From Vampirovibrionales bacterium (lineage in GTDB: Bacteria > Cyanobacteriota > Vampirovibrionia > Vampirovibrionales > Vampirovibrionaceae): DNA of 64,000 nucleotides. The stretch is taken from assembly GCA_039794365.1 (NCBI GenBank), contig JBDIVN010000009.1, positions 70,833 through 134,832 of the forward strand. The letters are read 5' to 3'. How positions within the stretch are numbered: the stretch's first letter is position 1; every line of letters begins with the position of its first letter. A program made the position numbers and the translations under genes. The notes below the pieces were generated by a model. The model ran no database searches. It was not told the DNA's origin and saw only the letters and a list, made by a program, of their open reading frames with translations. Shown here piece after piece: positions 37,800-45,012 of the stretch.

Positions 37800-37862
37800 A
37801 TGACCTCATTCATCCACGCCAGCGTCCATCATCCTCATCACCACCGTTTTCGGTGCTGGTAA
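37800..37862 (+). CDS. hisL: His operon leader peptide MTSFIHASVHHPHHHRFRCW
   Basis: 20-codon ORF with 6 His codons (5 within 6 positions) upstream of a terminator and hisG. Confidence 0.88.
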   Translation: MTSFIHASVHHPHHHRFRCW

Positions 37863-37912
37863 TCGCTTGGCTTGATGAATCCTGTAATTTTTGATTTTTA
37901 ACGCTTCAACCG

Positions 37913-37951
37913 ACGAACCGCCAGCCCTGAAAGCCCCGGCGGTTCGTTTTT
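37913..37951 (+). terminator. His attenuator terminator
   Basis: ACGAACCGCC...GGCGGTTCGT + TTTT, 18 nt before the hisG start. Confidence 0.85.
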
Positions 37952-37969: not shown

Positions 37970-38845
37970 ATGTCCGACAAGTTGAAAATGGTGATCCCCA
38001 AAGGCCGTCTGCAGGAGAAGGTCGAGGCCCTGCTGGCCCGCGTGGGCATCGAACTGATGTTCAGCACGCGCAGCTACCGGCCGGTTTGCTCCGACCCGGA
38101 CGTGGAGGTCAAGCTGGTCAAACCCCAGAACATCCCCGCCCTCATCAGTCTGGGCCGTCACGACTGCGGCTTTACCGGCCTGGACTGGATCATCGAGCAG
38201 GACTTTGCCGACGACCCAAACCTGGTGGAGTTGGTGGATCTCGGCTACAACAAGGTCCGCATCGTTGCCGCCGTACCGGAAGATCTGGCTGAGAACGACG
38301 CTTATAAAACCCGCAAGAAGCTGGTCATCGCCTCCGAGTATCACAAGCTGGCGGCGGACTACGTGAAAAAGCAGGGCCTGGACGCCATCCTCATCAAGAC
38401 CTACGGTGCCACGGAAGCCCTGCCGCCGGAAGACGCGGACATGATCATCGACAACACCTCCACCGGCTCCACGCTGGTGATGAACCGCCTGGTCATCGTG
38501 GACGAGCTGCTGGCCTCCACCACCCGTTTCATCAGCAGCCGCCAGGCCATGGATGATGCCAAAAAGGGCGACAAACTGCGGAAGATCCGGATGCTGATGG
38601 AAAGCGTCCGCATGGCGGATAAAAAGGTCCTGCTGGAGATGAATGTGGCGGCGGACAAGTTCGAGCAACTGGTCAGCCACCTGCCCAGCATGCGCTCCCC
38701 CACCGTCTCGCCCCTCTACCAGGAGAAAGGCTATGCCGTCAAGGTGGCCGTGCCGTCCTCCGAGGTGCCGCTGCTCATACCGGAACTGGTAAAATTGGGC
38801 GCAACGGATATTCTTGAATACAAGCTGGAGAAGATTGTTCCATGA
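37970..38845 (+). CDS. hisG: ATP phosphoribosyltransferase, long form
   Basis: IPKGRL, GFTGLDW, YGATEA, DMIIDNTSTGSTL; C-terminal regulatory domain (PSMRSPTVSPL). Confidence 0.95.
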   Translation: MSDKLKMVIPKGRLQEKVEALLARVGIELMFSTRSYRPVCSDPDVEVKLVKPQNIPALISLGRHDCGFTGLDWIIEQDFADDPNLVELVDLGYNKVRIVAAVPEDLAENDAYKTRKKLVIASEYHKLAADYVKKQGLDAILIKTYGATEALPPEDADMIIDNTSTGSTLVMNRLVIVDELLASTTRFISSRQAMDDAKKGDKLRKIRMLMESVRMADKKVLLEMNVAADKFEQLVSHLPSMRSPTVSPLYQEKGYAVKVAVPSSEVPLLIPELVKLGATDILEYKLEKIVP

Positions 38846-40554
38846 GTTTGGAGACCGTCATGACCGGAAAAATCCTGCCCAAAAAGGCGATCCAGAACAT
38901 GGAAGCCTACTCCGCGCCGCTGGAGGGCCGCCGCAATAAAATACGGCTGGATTTCAACGAGAATACCACCGGCTTCCCTGACGCCTACGAAGGACTTCCG
39001 GCGGAACTCATCAACGCTTACCCGGAGTACGACGCCTTTCTGGAGAAACTGGCGAAGCACTTCGGCGTGAAGCCGGAAAACCTGATGCTGACCAACGGCA
39101 GCGCCGAGGCCCTGTTCCTCATCCCGTTCACCTTCATCGAGCCGGACGAGGATGTCGCCGTCGTCTCCACGCCCACGTTCCCCATCATCCCCCACAGCCT
39201 GCGCCTCGTTCAGGCAAAACTGCGGGAAGTCACCGCCAACCCGGATCTCACCTATAACGTGGACGGACTGGAACAGGCCCTAGCCGAAGGCGCCAAGCTC
39301 TGCATCATCGCCACGCCGGACAACCCTACCGGCGCTGTACTGGATGCCGACGTCATCCTGCGCTGGTGCGACCGGTTTCCTGACACGCTCTTCGTCATTG
39401 ACGAGGCCTACTACGAGTTTGACGGTCGCACGGTGCTGCCGGAGGTGACCAAACGCCATAACCTGCTGGTGACCCGCAGCTTCTCCAAGGCGTGGTCGCT
39501 GGCGTCACTGCGCCTGGGGGTGATTATCGGCCCGGAGGAGTTGATGAAATACATTGGCCGGGCAAAATCGCCCTACAGTGTCAACGCCGTCGCCGTGAAG
39601 CTGGCCTCAAACCTGCTGGATCGCCATGACGAGGTTCAAGCGCAGGCGCAGGCCATCATGGCCCGCAAGCAGCGGATGATCGAGGAGGTCCGAAAGCGTG
39701 GTTATGACGTGGTGGAAGGCGCGGGCAACTTCTTCCTGCTCAAGGCGGGGTTCGATTCCAAGACTCTCAGCCAGTTCTGCTACGAGCGTGGCGTGTTATT
39801 GCGGGATCGTTCCGGCCTGCCCCACATGTGGGGGACCATCCGGGTGAATGCCGGGACGGATGACGAGATCGAGCGCTTCCTTGAATGCCTTGACGAGTTC
39901 CGTCAGAGCCGGGCGCTGATTTTCGACCTCGATGACACCCTGGTGGATACATCCCAAAGCTACGACGCCACGATTCTCCAGTTGCTGAAGGATCACACCG
40001 GCAAGGACGTTCCCCGCAAGGAACTCAAGGCCCTGCGGGCCGAGGGCGGATTCAACGACGACTGGGACGCCACCCGTGAATTGCTCCGCCGCCATGGGAT
40101 CGAGATGACCCGTGAGCAGGTGGAGGCCGAGGGCAAACGAATTTATCTGGGCATCGCCCTGGATACGGAAGACTGGCTGATGCCGGCGGCTCTCTTCGAG
40201 AAGCTGAAACACCGCTACCGGCTGATGGTGGTGACGGGCCGTCCCCGCGATGAGTACGGTCCCGTCTGGCAGTCGCGGCTCGATCCGCTGGTGGAGTGCT
40301 GCGTGTGCCAGGACGACTACGACGGCCTGCCCCGAAAACCGGCCCCGGATGTGCTGAAACGCACCATGCGGGAGACGGGCATCACCGGCGGCATCTACGT
40401 CGGCAATTCCGTGGATGATATGCGCGCCGCAAAGGGTGCGGGCCTCAAGGCCATCGGCGTGACCTCCACCCACGAAGCCCAATTGCTCTCCGAGGCCGGG
40501 GCGGATACGATTATCGAGTCCATGAACGACTTACGAAAGGTGCTGATGCTATGA
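38842..40554 (+). CDS. hisC: Histidinol-phosphate aminotransferase fused to a C-terminal HAD-family phosphatase
   Basis: LDFNEN, PDNPTG, DEAYYEF, RSFSKAWSLASLRLG (PLP Lys); then FDLDDTLVD, GGFNDDW, VVTGR, KPAP, YVGNSVDD. Confidence 0.9.
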   Translation: MSLETVMTGKILPKKAIQNMEAYSAPLEGRRNKIRLDFNENTTGFPDAYEGLPAELINAYPEYDAFLEKLAKHFGVKPENLMLTNGSAEALFLIPFTFIEPDEDVAVVSTPTFPIIPHSLRLVQAKLREVTANPDLTYNVDGLEQALAEGAKLCIIATPDNPTGAVLDADVILRWCDRFPDTLFVIDEAYYEFDGRTVLPEVTKRHNLLVTRSFSKAWSLASLRLGVIIGPEELMKYIGRAKSPYSVNAVAVKLASNLLDRHDEVQAQAQAIMARKQRMIEEVRKRGYDVVEGAGNFFLLKAGFDSKTLSQFCYERGVLLRDRSGLPHMWGTIRVNAGTDDEIERFLECLDEFRQSRALIFDLDDTLVDTSQSYDATILQLLKDHTGKDVPRKELKALRAEGGFNDDWDATRELLRRHGIEMTREQVEAEGKRIYLGIALDTEDWLMPAALFEKLKHRYRLMVVTGRPRDEYGPVWQSRLDPLVECCVCQDDYDGLPRKPAPDVLKRTMRETGITGGIYVGNSVDDMRAAKGAGLKAIGVTSTHEAQLLSEAGADTIIESMNDLRKVLML

Positions 40555-41165
40555 GCGCGACGTCCGTGAACAACCGCCAGAGCCGCAAGGCAACCGTGGA
40601 ACGGGAATCGAAGGAAACGCAGATCCGGGTGTCCATCAATATCGATGACTCGTCCGAGCTGTCCATCGAAACCGGGCTGCCCTTCTTCAACCACATGCTC
40701 GAAGCCTTCGCCGTCCACGGCCGCTTCGGGCTGGTGATTGATGCCAAGGGCGACGTGGAGGTGGACCCGCACCACCTGATTGAGGACACCGGCATCGTCC
40801 TCGGCCAGGCTATCGCCAAGGCCCTGGACGGCTACAAGGGCATTGCCCGTGCGGGGTGCTTCGCCTTTCCCATGGATGGCACCCTCTCCGTCACCGCCGT
40901 GGATCTCTGTGGCCGGGCGAACCTGGTCTGGAAGGTCAAGTTCGGCCCGTTCACCGTGGGCAGCCTGGACCCGAATCTCTTCCGGGAGTTTTACAAGGGT
41001 CTCGTCGATGGCATGAAGGGCACCCTGCACGTCCATGTGCCGGTGCAGGACAACGATCACCACGTGGTGGAATCCATCTTCAAGGCCTTCGCCCGATCCC
41101 TGCGCCAGGCGGCGGAACCCGTCGATGCGGCGGTGCTCAGCACCAAAGGCATGCTCGACACATGA
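40551..41165 (+). CDS. hisB: Imidazoleglycerol-phosphate dehydratase (monofunctional)
   Basis: TGLPFFNHML, DPHHLIED, NDHHVVESIFKA, STKG. Confidence 0.96.
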   Translation: MSATSVNNRQSRKATVERESKETQIRVSINIDDSSELSIETGLPFFNHMLEAFAVHGRFGLVIDAKGDVEVDPHHLIEDTGIVLGQAIAKALDGYKGIARAGCFAFPMDGTLSVTAVDLCGRANLVWKVKFGPFTVGSLDPNLFREFYKGLVDGMKGTLHVHVPVQDNDHHVVESIFKAFARSLRQAAEPVDAAVLSTKGMLDT

Positions 41166-41764
41166 TCGAGTTGATCGACTACGGCGGCGGCAACGTCGGC
41201 AGCGTCATCCGCTGCCTGCACCGGCTGGAGATTCCCTTTCGCATGGCCGGTCCCGACAGTTTGCCGTCGGGTGATCGCCCCATGATCCTCCCCGGCGTCG
41301 GCGCTTTTGGCTCAGTTATGCGAAGACTTTCTGAGGGGCGCGAGCTTTCCAAGGGTGGTCTGGCCGATCGCATCAAGGCACTTGTCGCCGAAGGGACGCC
41401 CTACCTGGGCATTTGCGTCGGCTTGCAGGTGCTGCTTGATGAAAGTACCGAGAATCCCGGCGTGCCGGGGCTGGGGCTGATCCCCGGCAAGGTCGTCAAG
41501 TTCACCGGCGGCAAGATCCCCCAGATTGGCTGGAATTCTATTCACGCCCCCAATGGAAAACAGGCTCCCGACGGGTATGTCTATTTCGTGAACTCATACT
41601 ATGCCGCCCCGGCGGACCCTTCCGTGGTTCTCTATGAAGCGAATTACAACGGTCCTTTCTGTGCCGCCATCCAGAAGGACAACATCACCGCCTTCCAGTT
41701 TCACCCGGAAAAAAGCGGCCACTTCGGCCATGAACTGTTTCGGAGGTGGTTCGATGCTGTGTAG
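41162..41764 (+). CDS. hisH: Imidazole glycerol phosphate synthase, glutaminase subunit
   Basis: [33 protein letters not shown]. Confidence 0.95.
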
Positions 41765-42515
41765 ACGGATCATCCCCTGCCTCGACGTGGCCGGTGGCCG
41801 GACGGTGAAGGGCATTAAATTTCAGAACCTGCGCGATATCGGCGATCCCGTCGCCCTGGCCGTGGTCTACCAGGAGCAGGGGGCCGATGAATTGCTGTTT
41901 CTGGACATCTCCGCCTCCCACGAGGGACGCGAAACCATGTTCCACGTCGTCGAGCAGGTGGCGGAAAGCCTGATGATTCCCTTTACCGTGGGTGGCGGGG
42001 TCTCTACGCTCGCCCATGTGAAAAAGCTGCTGAATTGCGGCGCAGACAAGGTTTCAGTCAACACCGCCGCCGTGTATAACCCGCAACTGATCAAAGAGAT
42101 CGCCGACGAATGCGGCTCACAGTGTTGTGTGCTGGCCATCGATGCCCGGCGTCGTTCGGACGGAAACGGCTGGGAGGTATTGACCCACGGCGGACGGAAA
42201 ATTGCCAGGGAAGACGCGCTGGCCTGGGCGAAAGAGGCCGTTGAATTGGGTGCTGGTGAAATCTTGCTGACCTCCTGGGATCGCGACGGCACCCATGAGG
42301 GCTTCGATCTCGAACTCACCCGCGCCTTTGCCGATGCTCTCCCTGTGCCGGTGATCGCCTCCGGCGGGGCCAGCGGAGCAGGAAGTTTTGTGGATGTATT
42401 TCAGCAGGGCCATGCCGATGCGGCGCTGGCGGCGAGTATTTTCCACGACGGCGAGTGGACCGTTGAGGGTCTGAAAGAAGTCATTAAGCAGGAAGGAATC
42501 CCGGTTCGACTATGA
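41754..42515 (+). CDS. hisF: Imidazole glycerol phosphate synthase, cyclase subunit
   Basis: [44 protein letters not shown]. Confidence 0.96.
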
Positions 42516-43750
42516 TTATCCCCAGTATCGACCTGATAGACGGCAAGGCGGTGCAGTTGCGCCAGGGCAAGGAGCACGTGCTGACCCACGACACGGACCC
42601 GGTGGAACTGGCCCGCGAATTCAACCGTTACGGTGAGATCGGTGTCATCGATCTCGACGCGGCGATGGGCAAGGGCGACAACCTGGAACTCGTCAAGCGC
42701 ATCTGCCGGGTGGCCAGCGTCCGGGCCGGGGGCGGGATTCGCACCAAGGAGCGAGCGAGCGAGCTGCTTCGCGCCGGGGCGGAGCGCATCATCATCGGCA
42801 CGTCCGCCACGCCGGAATTTCTTTCGCAGCTTCCAAAAGAGCGGGTCATGGTGGCCATCGACCACATGCAGGGCGAAGTCGTCGATCAGGGCTGGACCCG
42901 CGGCACCGGCGAGACGTTTCTGGACCGGGCCAACGCGCTGAAAGACTACTGCGGCTCCTTCCTCTGCACCTTCGTGGCCGAGGAAGGCACGATGAAGGGC
43001 ATGAATATCCCCGAAGTTCTGGCGATCCAAAAGCAGATCGACAAGCCTCTCACCGTGGCGGGCGGCATTGCCCGGACGGAGGAGGTCATCGAGCTGTCGA
43101 AGCACGGCCTCGACGTTCAGGTCGGTATGGCCCTCTATACCGGCAATCTCGATCCGGTGGACGCCGTGGTCGGCAGCCTGGACTTTGACAAGCAGGGCGG
43201 GTTGATTCCCACCATCGTGCAGGACGAGGCGGACCAGGTGCTGATGCTGGCCTACAGCTCGAAGGAATCCCTTCAGCAGGCCCTGAAAACCGGAAAAGGC
43301 ATCTATTTCAGCCGATCCCGCAACGAATTGTGGGAGAAGGGCAAGACCTCCGGCAACATGCAGGAGCTGCTTTCGTGCCGGGTGGATTGCGACCGGGACA
43401 CGATTTTATTCACGGTCAGCCAGTCGGGACCTGCCTGTCATACGGAAGCCTACAGCTGTTTCGGCAGCGGCCTGCGTACCCGCCGCTTCTCGTTGCCGGT
43501 CCTCTTTGATATTCTGGACGAACGCCGCCGGAATCTGCCCGAAGGCTCCTACTCGGCCAAGCTCTTCAAAGACCGTGCTCTGCTCAACAGCAAGGTGATG
43601 GAAGAGGCGCAGGAAGCCATCGAGGCGGAGAGATTCGACGACGTGGTGTGGGAAATCTCCGACGCCATCTACTTCCTTAGCGCGCTGGCCGTCAGCCAGG
43701 GGGTGCGGTGGACGGATATCGAAGCCGAACTGGGAGGCCGTCACAAATGA
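42512..43750 (+). CDS. hisA: HisA-HisI-HisE triple fusion
   Basis: [14 protein letters not shown] / RAGGGIR (HisA); [30 protein letters not shown] (HisI); [17 protein letters not shown] (HisE). Confidence 0.9.
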
Positions 43751-45012
43751 TTCCCGTCTACACCGGCAAAAAAGCCCGCGAACTGCTGATGACCCTCGCC
43801 GAATTCACTCCCTCGGCGGATCACACCGTCGAGCAGGCCGTCCGCCAAATTATTTCCAACGTCCGTGACGGCGGCGACGGCGCCCTGCGCGAACTGGCCC
43901 GGCGCTTCGGCGATCCGGTGCCGGACAACTTCCTGATGTCCGCGCTTGAGATTGAAGAGGCTGTTCGCCGTGTTCCCGAAGAAACCCGGAAGGTCTTGAA
44001 CCAGGCGGCGGAAAATATTCGATTCTTCGCCCAGTCCGTCAAGGATGGGATTTCACCGGTCTATCTGGATCGCGGCGGCTTTCTCACCGGGCTGGACTTT
44101 CGTCCGGTGGAGCGGGTGGCCTGTTATGTCCCCGGCGGACGTTATCCCCTCCCTTCAACGGCCCTGATGACGGCCATCACTGCCCAGGTAGCGGGGGTGC
44201 AGGATATCTGCATCGCCTCCCCCTCGCTGCGGGATGAGATTGTTTATGCCGGAACCCTGGCTGGTGTGAAAAAATTCTACCGCCTTGGCGGTGCCCAGGC
44301 GGTGGCGGCACTGGCGACAGGAACGGAATCCGTTGGGAAAGTCGATATGATCGTCGGCCCCGGCAACGCCTATGTTACCGAAGCCAAACGCCAGTTGCAG
44401 GGCATTATCGGCATCGATATGCTGGCGGGGCCCAGCGAAGTCGGGATCATTGCCGACGAGGGCGCCAACCCGAAGTGGGTGGCGCTGGATCTGCTGGCCC
44501 AGGCGGAACATGATCCCGATGCCCGCGCCTATCTTTTTACCGATAGCGATGTTTTGGCTGGACGGGTGGCCGCCGAGGTCGAAACCGCCCTGACCAAACT
44601 CAGTCTGCCGGACTTCATGCGCCGGTCCCTGGAGGCCAGTGGAATTTTCGTTCTATCCTCCCTGAACGAATGCGTGGAAGCTTGTAACTACCTGGCCCCG
44701 GAGCACTTGGAGCTTCAGGTTGCGGACCCGATGCCCCTCAAGCTTAGGCTGCATCATTACGGTGCCCTGTTCATGGGTTACGAAACCACGGTGCCCCATG
44801 GCGACTATATGGCCGGGCCGAACCATACCCTGCCGACGGGACGCACGGCACGCTTTTCCGGCAGCCTCACGCCGCTCACGTTCCTGCGCCCCCAAAGCTG
44901 GATCGAGGTGAAACCCGGCGACCGCACCCTGCCGGACGCCACCCGGAAGTTCGCCGAACTCGAGGGTCTCACCGCCCACGCCGCTGCCGCCAGTGTTCGG
45001 GCAAATATATAA
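43747..45012 (+). CDS. hisD: Histidinol dehydrogenase
   Basis: YVPGGRYP, GGAQAVAALA, GPGNAYV, IDMLAGPSE, LLAQAEHD, APEHLEL, GPNHTLPT. Confidence 0.96.
   Translation: MIPVYTGKKARELLMTLAEFTPSADHTVEQAVRQIISNVRDGGDGALRELARRFGDPVPDNFLMSALEIEEAVRRVPEETRKVLNQAAENIRFFAQSVKDGISPVYLDRGGFLTGLDFRPVERVACYVPGGRYPLPSTALMTAITAQVAGVQDICIASPSLRDEIVYAGTLAGVKKFYRLGGAQAVAALATGTESVGKVDMIVGPGNAYVTEAKRQLQGIIGIDMLAGPSEVGIIADEGANPKWVALDLLAQAEHDPDARAYLFTDSDVLAGRVAAEVETALTKLSLPDFMRRSLEASGIFVLSSLNECVEACNYLAPEHLELQVADPMPLKLRLHHYGALFMGYETTVPHGDYMAGPNHTLPTGRTARFSGSLTPLTFLRPQSWIEVKPGDRTLPDATRKFAELEGLTAHAAAASVRANI

What the first reader, a model, noticed from the sequence alone, without database searches (positions are those of the whole stretch)
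39890..40554. HisC-HAD fusion points to the histidinol-phosphate phosphatase
Seen: a HAD domain (DLDDT, GGFNDDW, TGR, KP, GNSVDD) is fused to HisC, while HisB is monofunctional and the operon has no other phosphatase. Known: the phosphatase step directly follows HisC and is filled by unrelated enzymes in different lineages; enterobacteria fuse a HAD to HisB instead. The GGFNxDW motif recalls the TIGR01548-type HADs (from memory). Motif IV has Asn where Asp is usual. Inference: a Rosetta-stone assignment of this HAD subfamily as HolPase, with possible substrate channelling.
Basis: partly seen in the sequence, partly recalled or inferred. Interest (0 to 1): 0.55.

Follow-up and report, generated by a model that had tools for sequence, protein, structure and literature searches.

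The report
HisC fused to histidinol-phosphate phosphatase
One gene in this bacterium's histidine operon joins the enzyme that makes histidinol phosphate to a phosphatase that very probably performs the next step; that phosphatase family has already been assayed in archaea, so this is a useful annotation of an unnamed fusion and not a new enzyme.

Summary
Confirmed. ORF 38842-40554 (570 aa) is HisC (aa 1-356) joined without a linker to a C1-capped HAD domain (aa 357-570), between hisG and a monofunctional hisB.

The HAD is homologous to the assayed archaeal HolPases nmHisN and toHisN (Kinateder 2024). It carries their cap fingerprint as Y374-D375-R399-D407, the toHisN pattern.

Of 80 hisB-positive genomes among 151 sampled from the class, 46 have this HAD, 32 have a PHP-type HisK, none has both and 2 have neither. 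In two relatives the fused HisC part is gone and a separate hisC lies a few kb downstream, yet the HAD remains between hisG and hisB. That supports a HolPase role and argues against obligatory channelling.

The motif IV Asn is clade-wide (142/146) and has an active precedent (human PMM1 Asn218). TIGR01548 is the best match but is below cutoff (63 vs 140 bits).

The fusion is common (over 100 clusters: Vampirovibrionia, Planctomycetota, Eremiobacterota) and I found no paper describing it. This scan has already reported it on other DNA at least five times. HolPase function about 0.9, unassayed; channelling about 0.1.

The parts
38842..39909 (+). HisC domain (histidinol-phosphate aminotransferase, PLP fold type I), aa 1-356. 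PLP Lys216 at 39487-39489. Start at 38842 (overlaps the hisG stop) or at the second Met, 38860.
   Evidence: TIGR01141 246.6 bits, cutoff 276.55; best hisC match in the genome, 248 vs next 118 bits; D187, Y190, K216, R224 invariant in 98 homologs, R334 invariant in 77
39910..40554 (+). HAD phosphatase domain, aa 357-570, C1 helical cap, nmHisN/toHisN-like; predicted histidinol-phosphate phosphatase
39925..39933 (+). HAD motif I: nucleophile D362 and acid/base D364
   Evidence: invariant in 145/146 close and 15/15 distant homologs
39961..40062 (+). Cap fingerprint Y374, D375, I378, L395, R399, D407, equivalent to nmHisN Y24, D25, I28, I52, K56, E64; the toHisN combination Y-D-R-D
   Evidence: paper; Nitrosopumilus orthologs and alignment; coordinates
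40402..40419 (+). Motif IV with Asn522 at the usual Mg-binding Asp position, followed by invariant D525 and D526
   Evidence: Asn in 142/146 close homologs, Asp in 15/15 distant ones
39859..39924 (+). Fusion junction: the last HisC helix (aa 340-356) runs straight into HAD strand 1 (aa 357-361); no linker
   Evidence: AlphaFold2 full-length model, pLDDT 93.9, pTM 0.89; fixed junction length in 98/98
37970..38845 (+). hisG, long form with C-terminal regulatory domain
40551..41165 (+). hisB, monofunctional IGP dehydratase, overlapping the fusion's stop codon
41162..45012 (+). Rest of the operon: hisH (41162-41764), hisF (41754-42515), hisA-hisIE fusion (42512-43750), hisD (43747-45012)
37800..37862 (+). 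20-aa His-rich leader ORF upstream of hisG, a probable attenuator peptide
   Evidence: lead from e1-5099347; RNA folds not tested

Best explanation
The gene encodes a bifunctional enzyme for two consecutive steps of histidine synthesis. The N-terminal PLP domain transaminates imidazole-acetol phosphate to L-histidinol phosphate. The C-terminal HAD domain then hydrolyses the phosphate by the standard HAD route: D362 forms a phospho-aspartyl intermediate, D364 is the acid/base, T465 and K499 bind phosphate, and Mg2+ is held by D362, the D364 backbone and Asn522. The helical cap (Y374, D375, R399, D407) closes over the imidazole and amine end of the substrate. Histidinol is released to HisD. The fusion most likely arose by merging neighbouring hisC and hisN genes of a hisC-hisN-hisB operon. 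It fixes co-expression and stoichiometry but does not need to channel. Shown: the anatomy, homology, residue conservation and distribution. Inferred: activity, substrate, Mg coordination by Asn, and the origin of the fusion.
For: (1) Homology to assayed enzymes. Nitrosopumilaceae HADs lying between hisC and hisB (the Nmar_1556 position of PMC10804674) carry the published residues with the published spacing. A profile of the window protein's clade scores all 66 of them at 30-76 bits, and their own profile picks this ORF as best hit among 18,604 ORFs of the genome (E 2.9e-11), with the cap aligned residue for residue. Y-D-R-D is the toHisN fingerprint. (2) Order-level profile: strong HAD hit in 23 of 41 genomes and hisB in exactly the same 23. 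(3) Class-level profile: of 80 hisB-positive genomes, 46 have this HAD, 32 have PHP-type HisK over cutoff, none has both, 2 have neither. (4) In G207 and G230 the fused HisC part is gone, a canonical hisC lies 4-5 kb downstream on the same strand, and the HAD stays between hisG and hisB; in G233 it stays directly before hisB. (5) No rival enzyme tracks the pathway: no HisK, TIGR01490 or TIGR02137 match in this genome; IMPase-like proteins are below the HisN cutoff (141 vs 275 bits), occur in hisB-negative genomes and are missing from 10 hisB-positive ones; the GmhB-like protein occurs in all 18 hisB-negative genomes and is missing from 5 hisB-positive ones. (6) The 12 best distant relatives from a metagenome scan (25-33% identity, L223-L234) all have his genes in their locus, 11 of them directly adjacent. 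One eukaryote-like contig has a HisC-HAD-IGPD triple fusion. (7) Asn at motif IV is a Mg ligand in active human PMM1.
Against: No member of this clade has been assayed. Identity to a Nitrosopumilus ortholog is only about 31% over 218 aligned positions, and the archaeal cap is about 100 residues larger. I could not retrieve toHisN or Nmar_1556 themselves. The fingerprint Tyr is Phe in 80 of 146 close homologs, an untested change at a position where Ala cut kcat/KM about 300-fold. All six stand-alone close homologs whose context I read lie outside his operons, and one sits in a 7.7-Mb genome of unknown completeness in which no hisB or hisD was found. The HAD/HisK split follows family lines, so it reflects few independent events.
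Confidence: 0.9

Rival explanations
1. Same chemistry, but the rigid, linker-less fusion exists to channel histidinol phosphate directly from the PLP site to the HAD site. This is an add-on to the best explanation, not an alternative to it.
For: Junction length is invariant in 98/98. pTM 0.89 over 570 aa implies a confidently predicted domain orientation. A distant clade with Asp in motif IV is also fused to HisC.
Against: Un-fused forms replace the fusion within one genus (G207, G230 vs fused G199). The archaeal orthologs are stand-alone, and nmHisN is a monomer. Related HADs are fused to other partners too: HisC plus IGPD, and HisD according to e1-1108990 (unchecked). That pattern fits merging of operon neighbours. 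From general knowledge, HisC sites form at a homodimer interface and C1 HADs bind substrate by cap opening; no tunnel is shown.
Confidence: 0.1
2. The HAD is a broader or different phosphatase that travels with the operon (for example metabolite repair or PLP/PMP turnover), and histidinol phosphate is handled by the GmhB-like or IMPase-like proteins.
For: Stand-alone close homologs occur outside his operons, two of them behind an MFS transporter, and one in a genome with no hisB or hisD found. This genome has a TIGR01656 protein over cutoff and two IMPase-like proteins.
Against: Those candidates do not track hisB; G032 and G036 (94% complete, hisB-positive) have neither candidate nor HisK. nmHisN ignored nine other phosphoesters, including PLP. 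The stand-alone copies nest inside the fused clade, as expected of fission products.
Confidence: 0.07
3. The Asp-to-Asn change in motif IV has inactivated the domain, which persists as a ligand-binding or regulatory appendage of HisC.
For: The first motif IV residue is normally a Mg-binding Asp. It is Asp in all 15 distant homologs, in the cyanobacterial set and in the full-length archaeal examples printed.
Against: D362, D364, T465, K499, D525 and D526 are invariant or nearly so in 146 homologs. The Asn form is kept in operons from which the fused HisC was removed. PMM1 uses Asn as a Mg ligand. No other HolPase candidate tracks the pathway.
Confidence: 0.03

Closest known systems
nmHisN (Nmar_1556, Nitrosopumilus maritimus) and toHisN (Thermococcus onnurineus): archaeal-type HAD HolPases (PMC10804674)
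   Same: HAD fold with a single helical C1 cap; cap fingerprint in the same order and local spacing; for nmHisN, position between hisC and hisB; detectable reciprocal profile homology to the Nitrosopumilaceae orthologs.
   Different: Fused to HisC; bacterial; smaller cap (domain about 214 aa vs about 320); Asn in motif IV; fingerprint Tyr replaced by Phe in over half the clade; not assayed.
TIGR01548 (HAD-SF-IA-hyp1), the uncharacterised family of cyanobacteria and others
   Same: Best-scoring HAD family, whole model matched; shared cap signature.
   Different: 63-67 bits against a cutoff of 140.2. The cyanobacterial members examined are stand-alone, have no his genes within 1.5 kb, and carry Y-R-K-D with Asp in motif IV.
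E. coli HisNB (HisB-N, GmhB-related HAD fused to IGPD)
   Same: A HAD-superfamily HolPase fused to another his enzyme within the operon.
   Different: Different HAD subfamily and cap (TIGR01656 only 22 bits vs cutoff 84); fused to a non-consecutive step; independent origin according to PMC10804674.
HisC, TIGR01141
   Same: PLP-binding residues intact, operon position, best hisC match in the genome.
   Different: Divergent (246.6 vs cutoff 276.55) and extended by a HAD domain. The Fani 2007 survey lists fusions for hisA, B, D, E, F, H, I and N, not hisC.

Membership tests
HAD superfamily phosphatase, C1 cap | Motifs I (DxD), II (T/S), III (K) | tested here: met
   D362/D364, T465, K499
HAD superfamily phosphatase, C1 cap | Motif IV with two acidic residues (GDxxxD type) | tested here: inconclusive
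   First position is Asn (142/146), D525 and D526 invariant; Asn is a Mg ligand in PMM1
HAD superfamily phosphatase, C1 cap | Rossmannoid core with a helical cap between motifs I and II | tested here: met
   AF2 pLDDT 95.5, four cap helices; top Foldseek hits are HAD hydrolases, TM about 0.75
nmHisN/toHisN-type HolPase | Fingerprint Y24-D25-K/R56-E/D64 plus hydrophobic 28 and 52 | tested here: met
   Y374, D375, R399, D407, I378, L395, aligned to Nitrosopumilaceae orthologs; toHisN itself not retrieved, its pattern taken
nmHisN/toHisN-type HolPase | Sequence homology and a single helical cap | tested here: met
   Reciprocal profile hits (E 2.9e-11; 30-76 bits); about 31% identity; below the 45% used for clusters in the paper, so a distant branch
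nmHisN/toHisN-type HolPase | Linkage to his genes and absence of another HolPase | tested here: met
nmHisN/toHisN-type HolPase | Mg-dependent, specific hydrolysis of histidinol phosphate | not testable with these tools
   needs an assay
TIGR01548 | Score above curated cutoff 140.2 | tested here: not met
   63.2 (full protein) and 67.4 (domain); 0 of 41 genomes of the order over cutoff
HisB-N/GmhB type (TIGR01656) | Score above cutoff 84.15 | tested here: not met
   22.4 bits
HisC (TIGR01141) | Score above cutoff 276.55 | tested here: not met
   246.6 bits; still the best family and the best hit in the genome
HisC (TIGR01141) | PLP lysine motif, conserved Asp/Tyr/Arg ligands, his-operon position | tested here: met

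The most novel reading that the evidence does not exclude
The linker-less HisC-HolPase fusion, with its clade-specific Asn Mg ligand, is a rigid two-step enzyme that hands histidinol phosphate directly from the aminotransferase site to the phosphatase site. That would be the first channelling shown for this step of histidine synthesis, to my knowledge.
Probability: 0.1. Interest if true: 0.6.

Novelty: new variant of a known kind. Interest (0 to 1): 0.32.

Why it matters
HisN is the commonest unfilled step in amino-acid pathway annotation: missing in 42 of 208 prototrophs (20%) in GapMind 2026. Databases name these proteins only as aminotransferases, so the phosphatase is hidden. Recognising the domain closes the pathway in many Vampirovibrionia, Planctomycetota and Eremiobacterota genomes and extends the archaeal-type HolPase family into bacteria. 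It also points to the single-copy cyanobacterial TIGR01548 protein as a testable candidate for the HisN gap listed for Synechococcus elongatus. The chemistry and the enzyme family are known, so this is an annotation gain and a modest evolutionary example, not new biology.

Tried and rejected
PDB sequence and fold searches gave only generic HADs at 14-26% structural-alignment identity, with no solved HolPase of this family. Literature searches for a HisC-phosphatase fusion found no description (Fani 2007 and the archaeal fusion survey read); the library lacks most subscription papers, so this is not proof of absence. The Kinateder supplement is not held, so nmHisN was approached through Nitrosopumilaceae orthologs found with a motif recalled from memory and then verified on real DNA. 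The quick tree attaches its outgroup by long branches and cannot root the family or show that this clade is sister to nmHisN; I use it only for the nesting of stand-alone copies among fused ones. Assembly artefact rejected. CobD rejected: 171 bits vs cutoff 291, and his-operon context. No complex prediction was run: a full-length dimer (1140 aa) exceeds the limit, and a pass would not show channelling. The script stopped with an error before its last part; that part was rerun.

Full report
Observation. Window 38842-40554 (+) is one 570-aa frame. It overlaps the hisG stop upstream and the hisB start downstream by four bases. Residues 15-352 match HisC (TIGR01141, 246.6 bits) and are the best HisC match in the genome. 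HisB is IGPD only. The operon reads hisG, hisC-HAD, hisB, hisH, hisF, hisA-IE, hisD, preceded by a His-rich 20-aa leader ORF. The genome (3.49 Mb, 96% complete) is unnamed.

Distribution. The fusion is common. One search gave 106 close relatives at 42-57% HAD-domain identity, nearly all with the aminotransferase domain, with source names from Melainabacteria/Vampirovibrionales, Planctomycetota and Eremiobacterota, plus a distant group at 30-35%. The same operon order recurs in a Planctomycetota genome, an Eremiobacterota genome and the distant group. The junction has one fixed length in 98 of 98 full-length close homologs. In the AlphaFold2 model the last HisC helix runs directly into the first HAD strand (pLDDT 93.9, pTM 0.89).

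Family. TIGR01548 is the closest model but the score is less than half its cutoff. The informative relatives are assayed ones. Kinateder et al. 2024 (PMC10804674) showed that Nmar_1556, a HAD between hisC and hisB in N. maritimus, is a specific HolPase (kcat/KM 1.1e4; nine other phosphoesters untouched). They defined a cap fingerprint Y24-D25-K56-E64, which is Y-D-R-D in the earlier-assayed toHisN. I fetched Nitrosopumilaceae orthologs, confirmed the hisC-HAD-hisB order in one locus, and found the six published residues at the published offsets. A profile of these 66 proteins ranks the window ORF first in the genome (E 2.9e-11) and aligns the cap so that Y374, D375, I378, L395, R399 and D407 fall on the fingerprint positions. 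The window protein therefore carries the toHisN combination. Identity is low (about 31%) and the cap is smaller, so this is a distant branch of the family.

Profile tests. In 41 genomes of the order, the HAD and hisB occur in exactly the same 23. IMPase-like and GmhB-like proteins do not follow hisB, and no PHP-type HisK passes cutoff; this genome also has no TIGR01490 or TIGR02137 match. In 151 genomes of the class, 80 have hisB: 46 with this HAD, 32 with HisK over cutoff, none with both, and 2 with neither. One further genome has the fusion but no hisB found (G222, 210 contigs), and seven genomes without hisB have a higher-scoring TIGR01856 protein, so that model is not specific to histidine synthesis. 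The split follows families, so it counts as a few independent events, not eighty. The most telling cases are G207 and G230: the fused HisC part is absent, a canonical hisC lies 4-5 kb downstream on the same strand, and the HAD remains as its own gene between hisG and hisB, while G199 of the same genus keeps the fusion. The HAD is thus tied to the pathway and not merely to HisC. The 12 best distant relatives from a metagenome scan all have his genes in their locus, fused or separate, and one eukaryote-like contig has HisC-HAD-IGPD in one chain.

Motif IV. Asn522 is shared by 142 of 146 close homologs, whereas all 15 distant ones have Asp. Every other catalytic residue is invariant or nearly so. 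Human PMM1, an active HAD, binds Mg2+ through Asn218 at this motif. I read the Asn as a tolerated clade trait; its kinetic cost is unknown.

Counter-evidence. No protein of this clade has been assayed. The fingerprint Tyr is Phe in 80 of 146 close homologs. All six stand-alone close homologs examined lie outside his operons, and one is in a genome where no hisB or hisD was found. They nest inside the fused clade and may be fission products with a retained or altered role; this is unexplained.

Mechanism and channelling. Two consecutive steps sit on one chain. Transamination and phospho-aspartyl hydrolysis follow from established HisC and HAD chemistry; the substrate assignment is inferred. A fixed junction is compatible with channelling but also with a single gene-merging event. 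The natural un-fused operons and the monomeric archaeal enzyme make channelling unlikely to be required.

Novelty. The enzyme family and its function are published. The HisC fusion was not in the papers I could search. This scan has reported the same fusion in at least five other genomes; I had made the nmHisN link before seeing those notes. Verdict: new variant of a known kind, interest 0.32.

Noticed in passing
L172-L196 (TIGR01548 members from the phylum sample, apparently oxygenic cyanobacteria): TIGR01548 is over cutoff in 41 of 120 phylum genomes, single-copy and stand-alone, with no his genes within 1.5 kb in the 25 loci checked. It has the Y-R-K-D cap pattern that PMC10804674 calls likely HolPase. 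Candidate for the HisN gap listed for Synechococcus elongatus.
   Followed up: partly
L207:2230-4746 (P0122): 838-aa HisC-HAD-IGPD triple fusion on a contig that looks eukaryotic; three pathway steps on one chain.
   Followed up: partly
L306, L307, L308 (G207, G230, G233): Natural un-fusion: the HAD stays in the operon beside hisB while the fused HisC part is lost and a canonical hisC lies elsewhere.
   Followed up: yes
L208:7001-7642, L303:1610-2260, L304:5133-5804, L211, L212, L213: Stand-alone close homologs outside his operons; two overlap the end of an MFS transporter gene, one follows an acetyltransferase. G161 carries one but shows no hisB or hisD. Possible repurposing.
   Followed up: partly
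G187, G214: hisB-positive genomes with neither this HAD nor PHP-type HisK found: a possible further HolPase type, or assembly gaps.
   Followed up: no
18 of 41 genomes of the order (for example G003, G007, G012, G017): Neither hisB nor the HAD found, many at 93-99% completeness: probable histidine auxotrophs, patchy even within one genus (g13: 1 of 8 positive).
   Followed up: no
window 42512-43750: HisA-HisI-HisE triple fusion; the same fusion is in the distant operon L209, and HisA-HisI in L206.
   Followed up: partly
window 37800-37950: His-rich leader ORF followed by a hairpin and T run before hisG, consistent with attenuation; alternative folds not computed.
   Followed up: partly
L197:1369-1953 (G000 contig C1): 194-aa GmhB-like HAD-IIIA protein over the TIGR01656 cutoff, which could be mis-annotated as the HolPase; its relatives do not track hisB.
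   Followed up: yes
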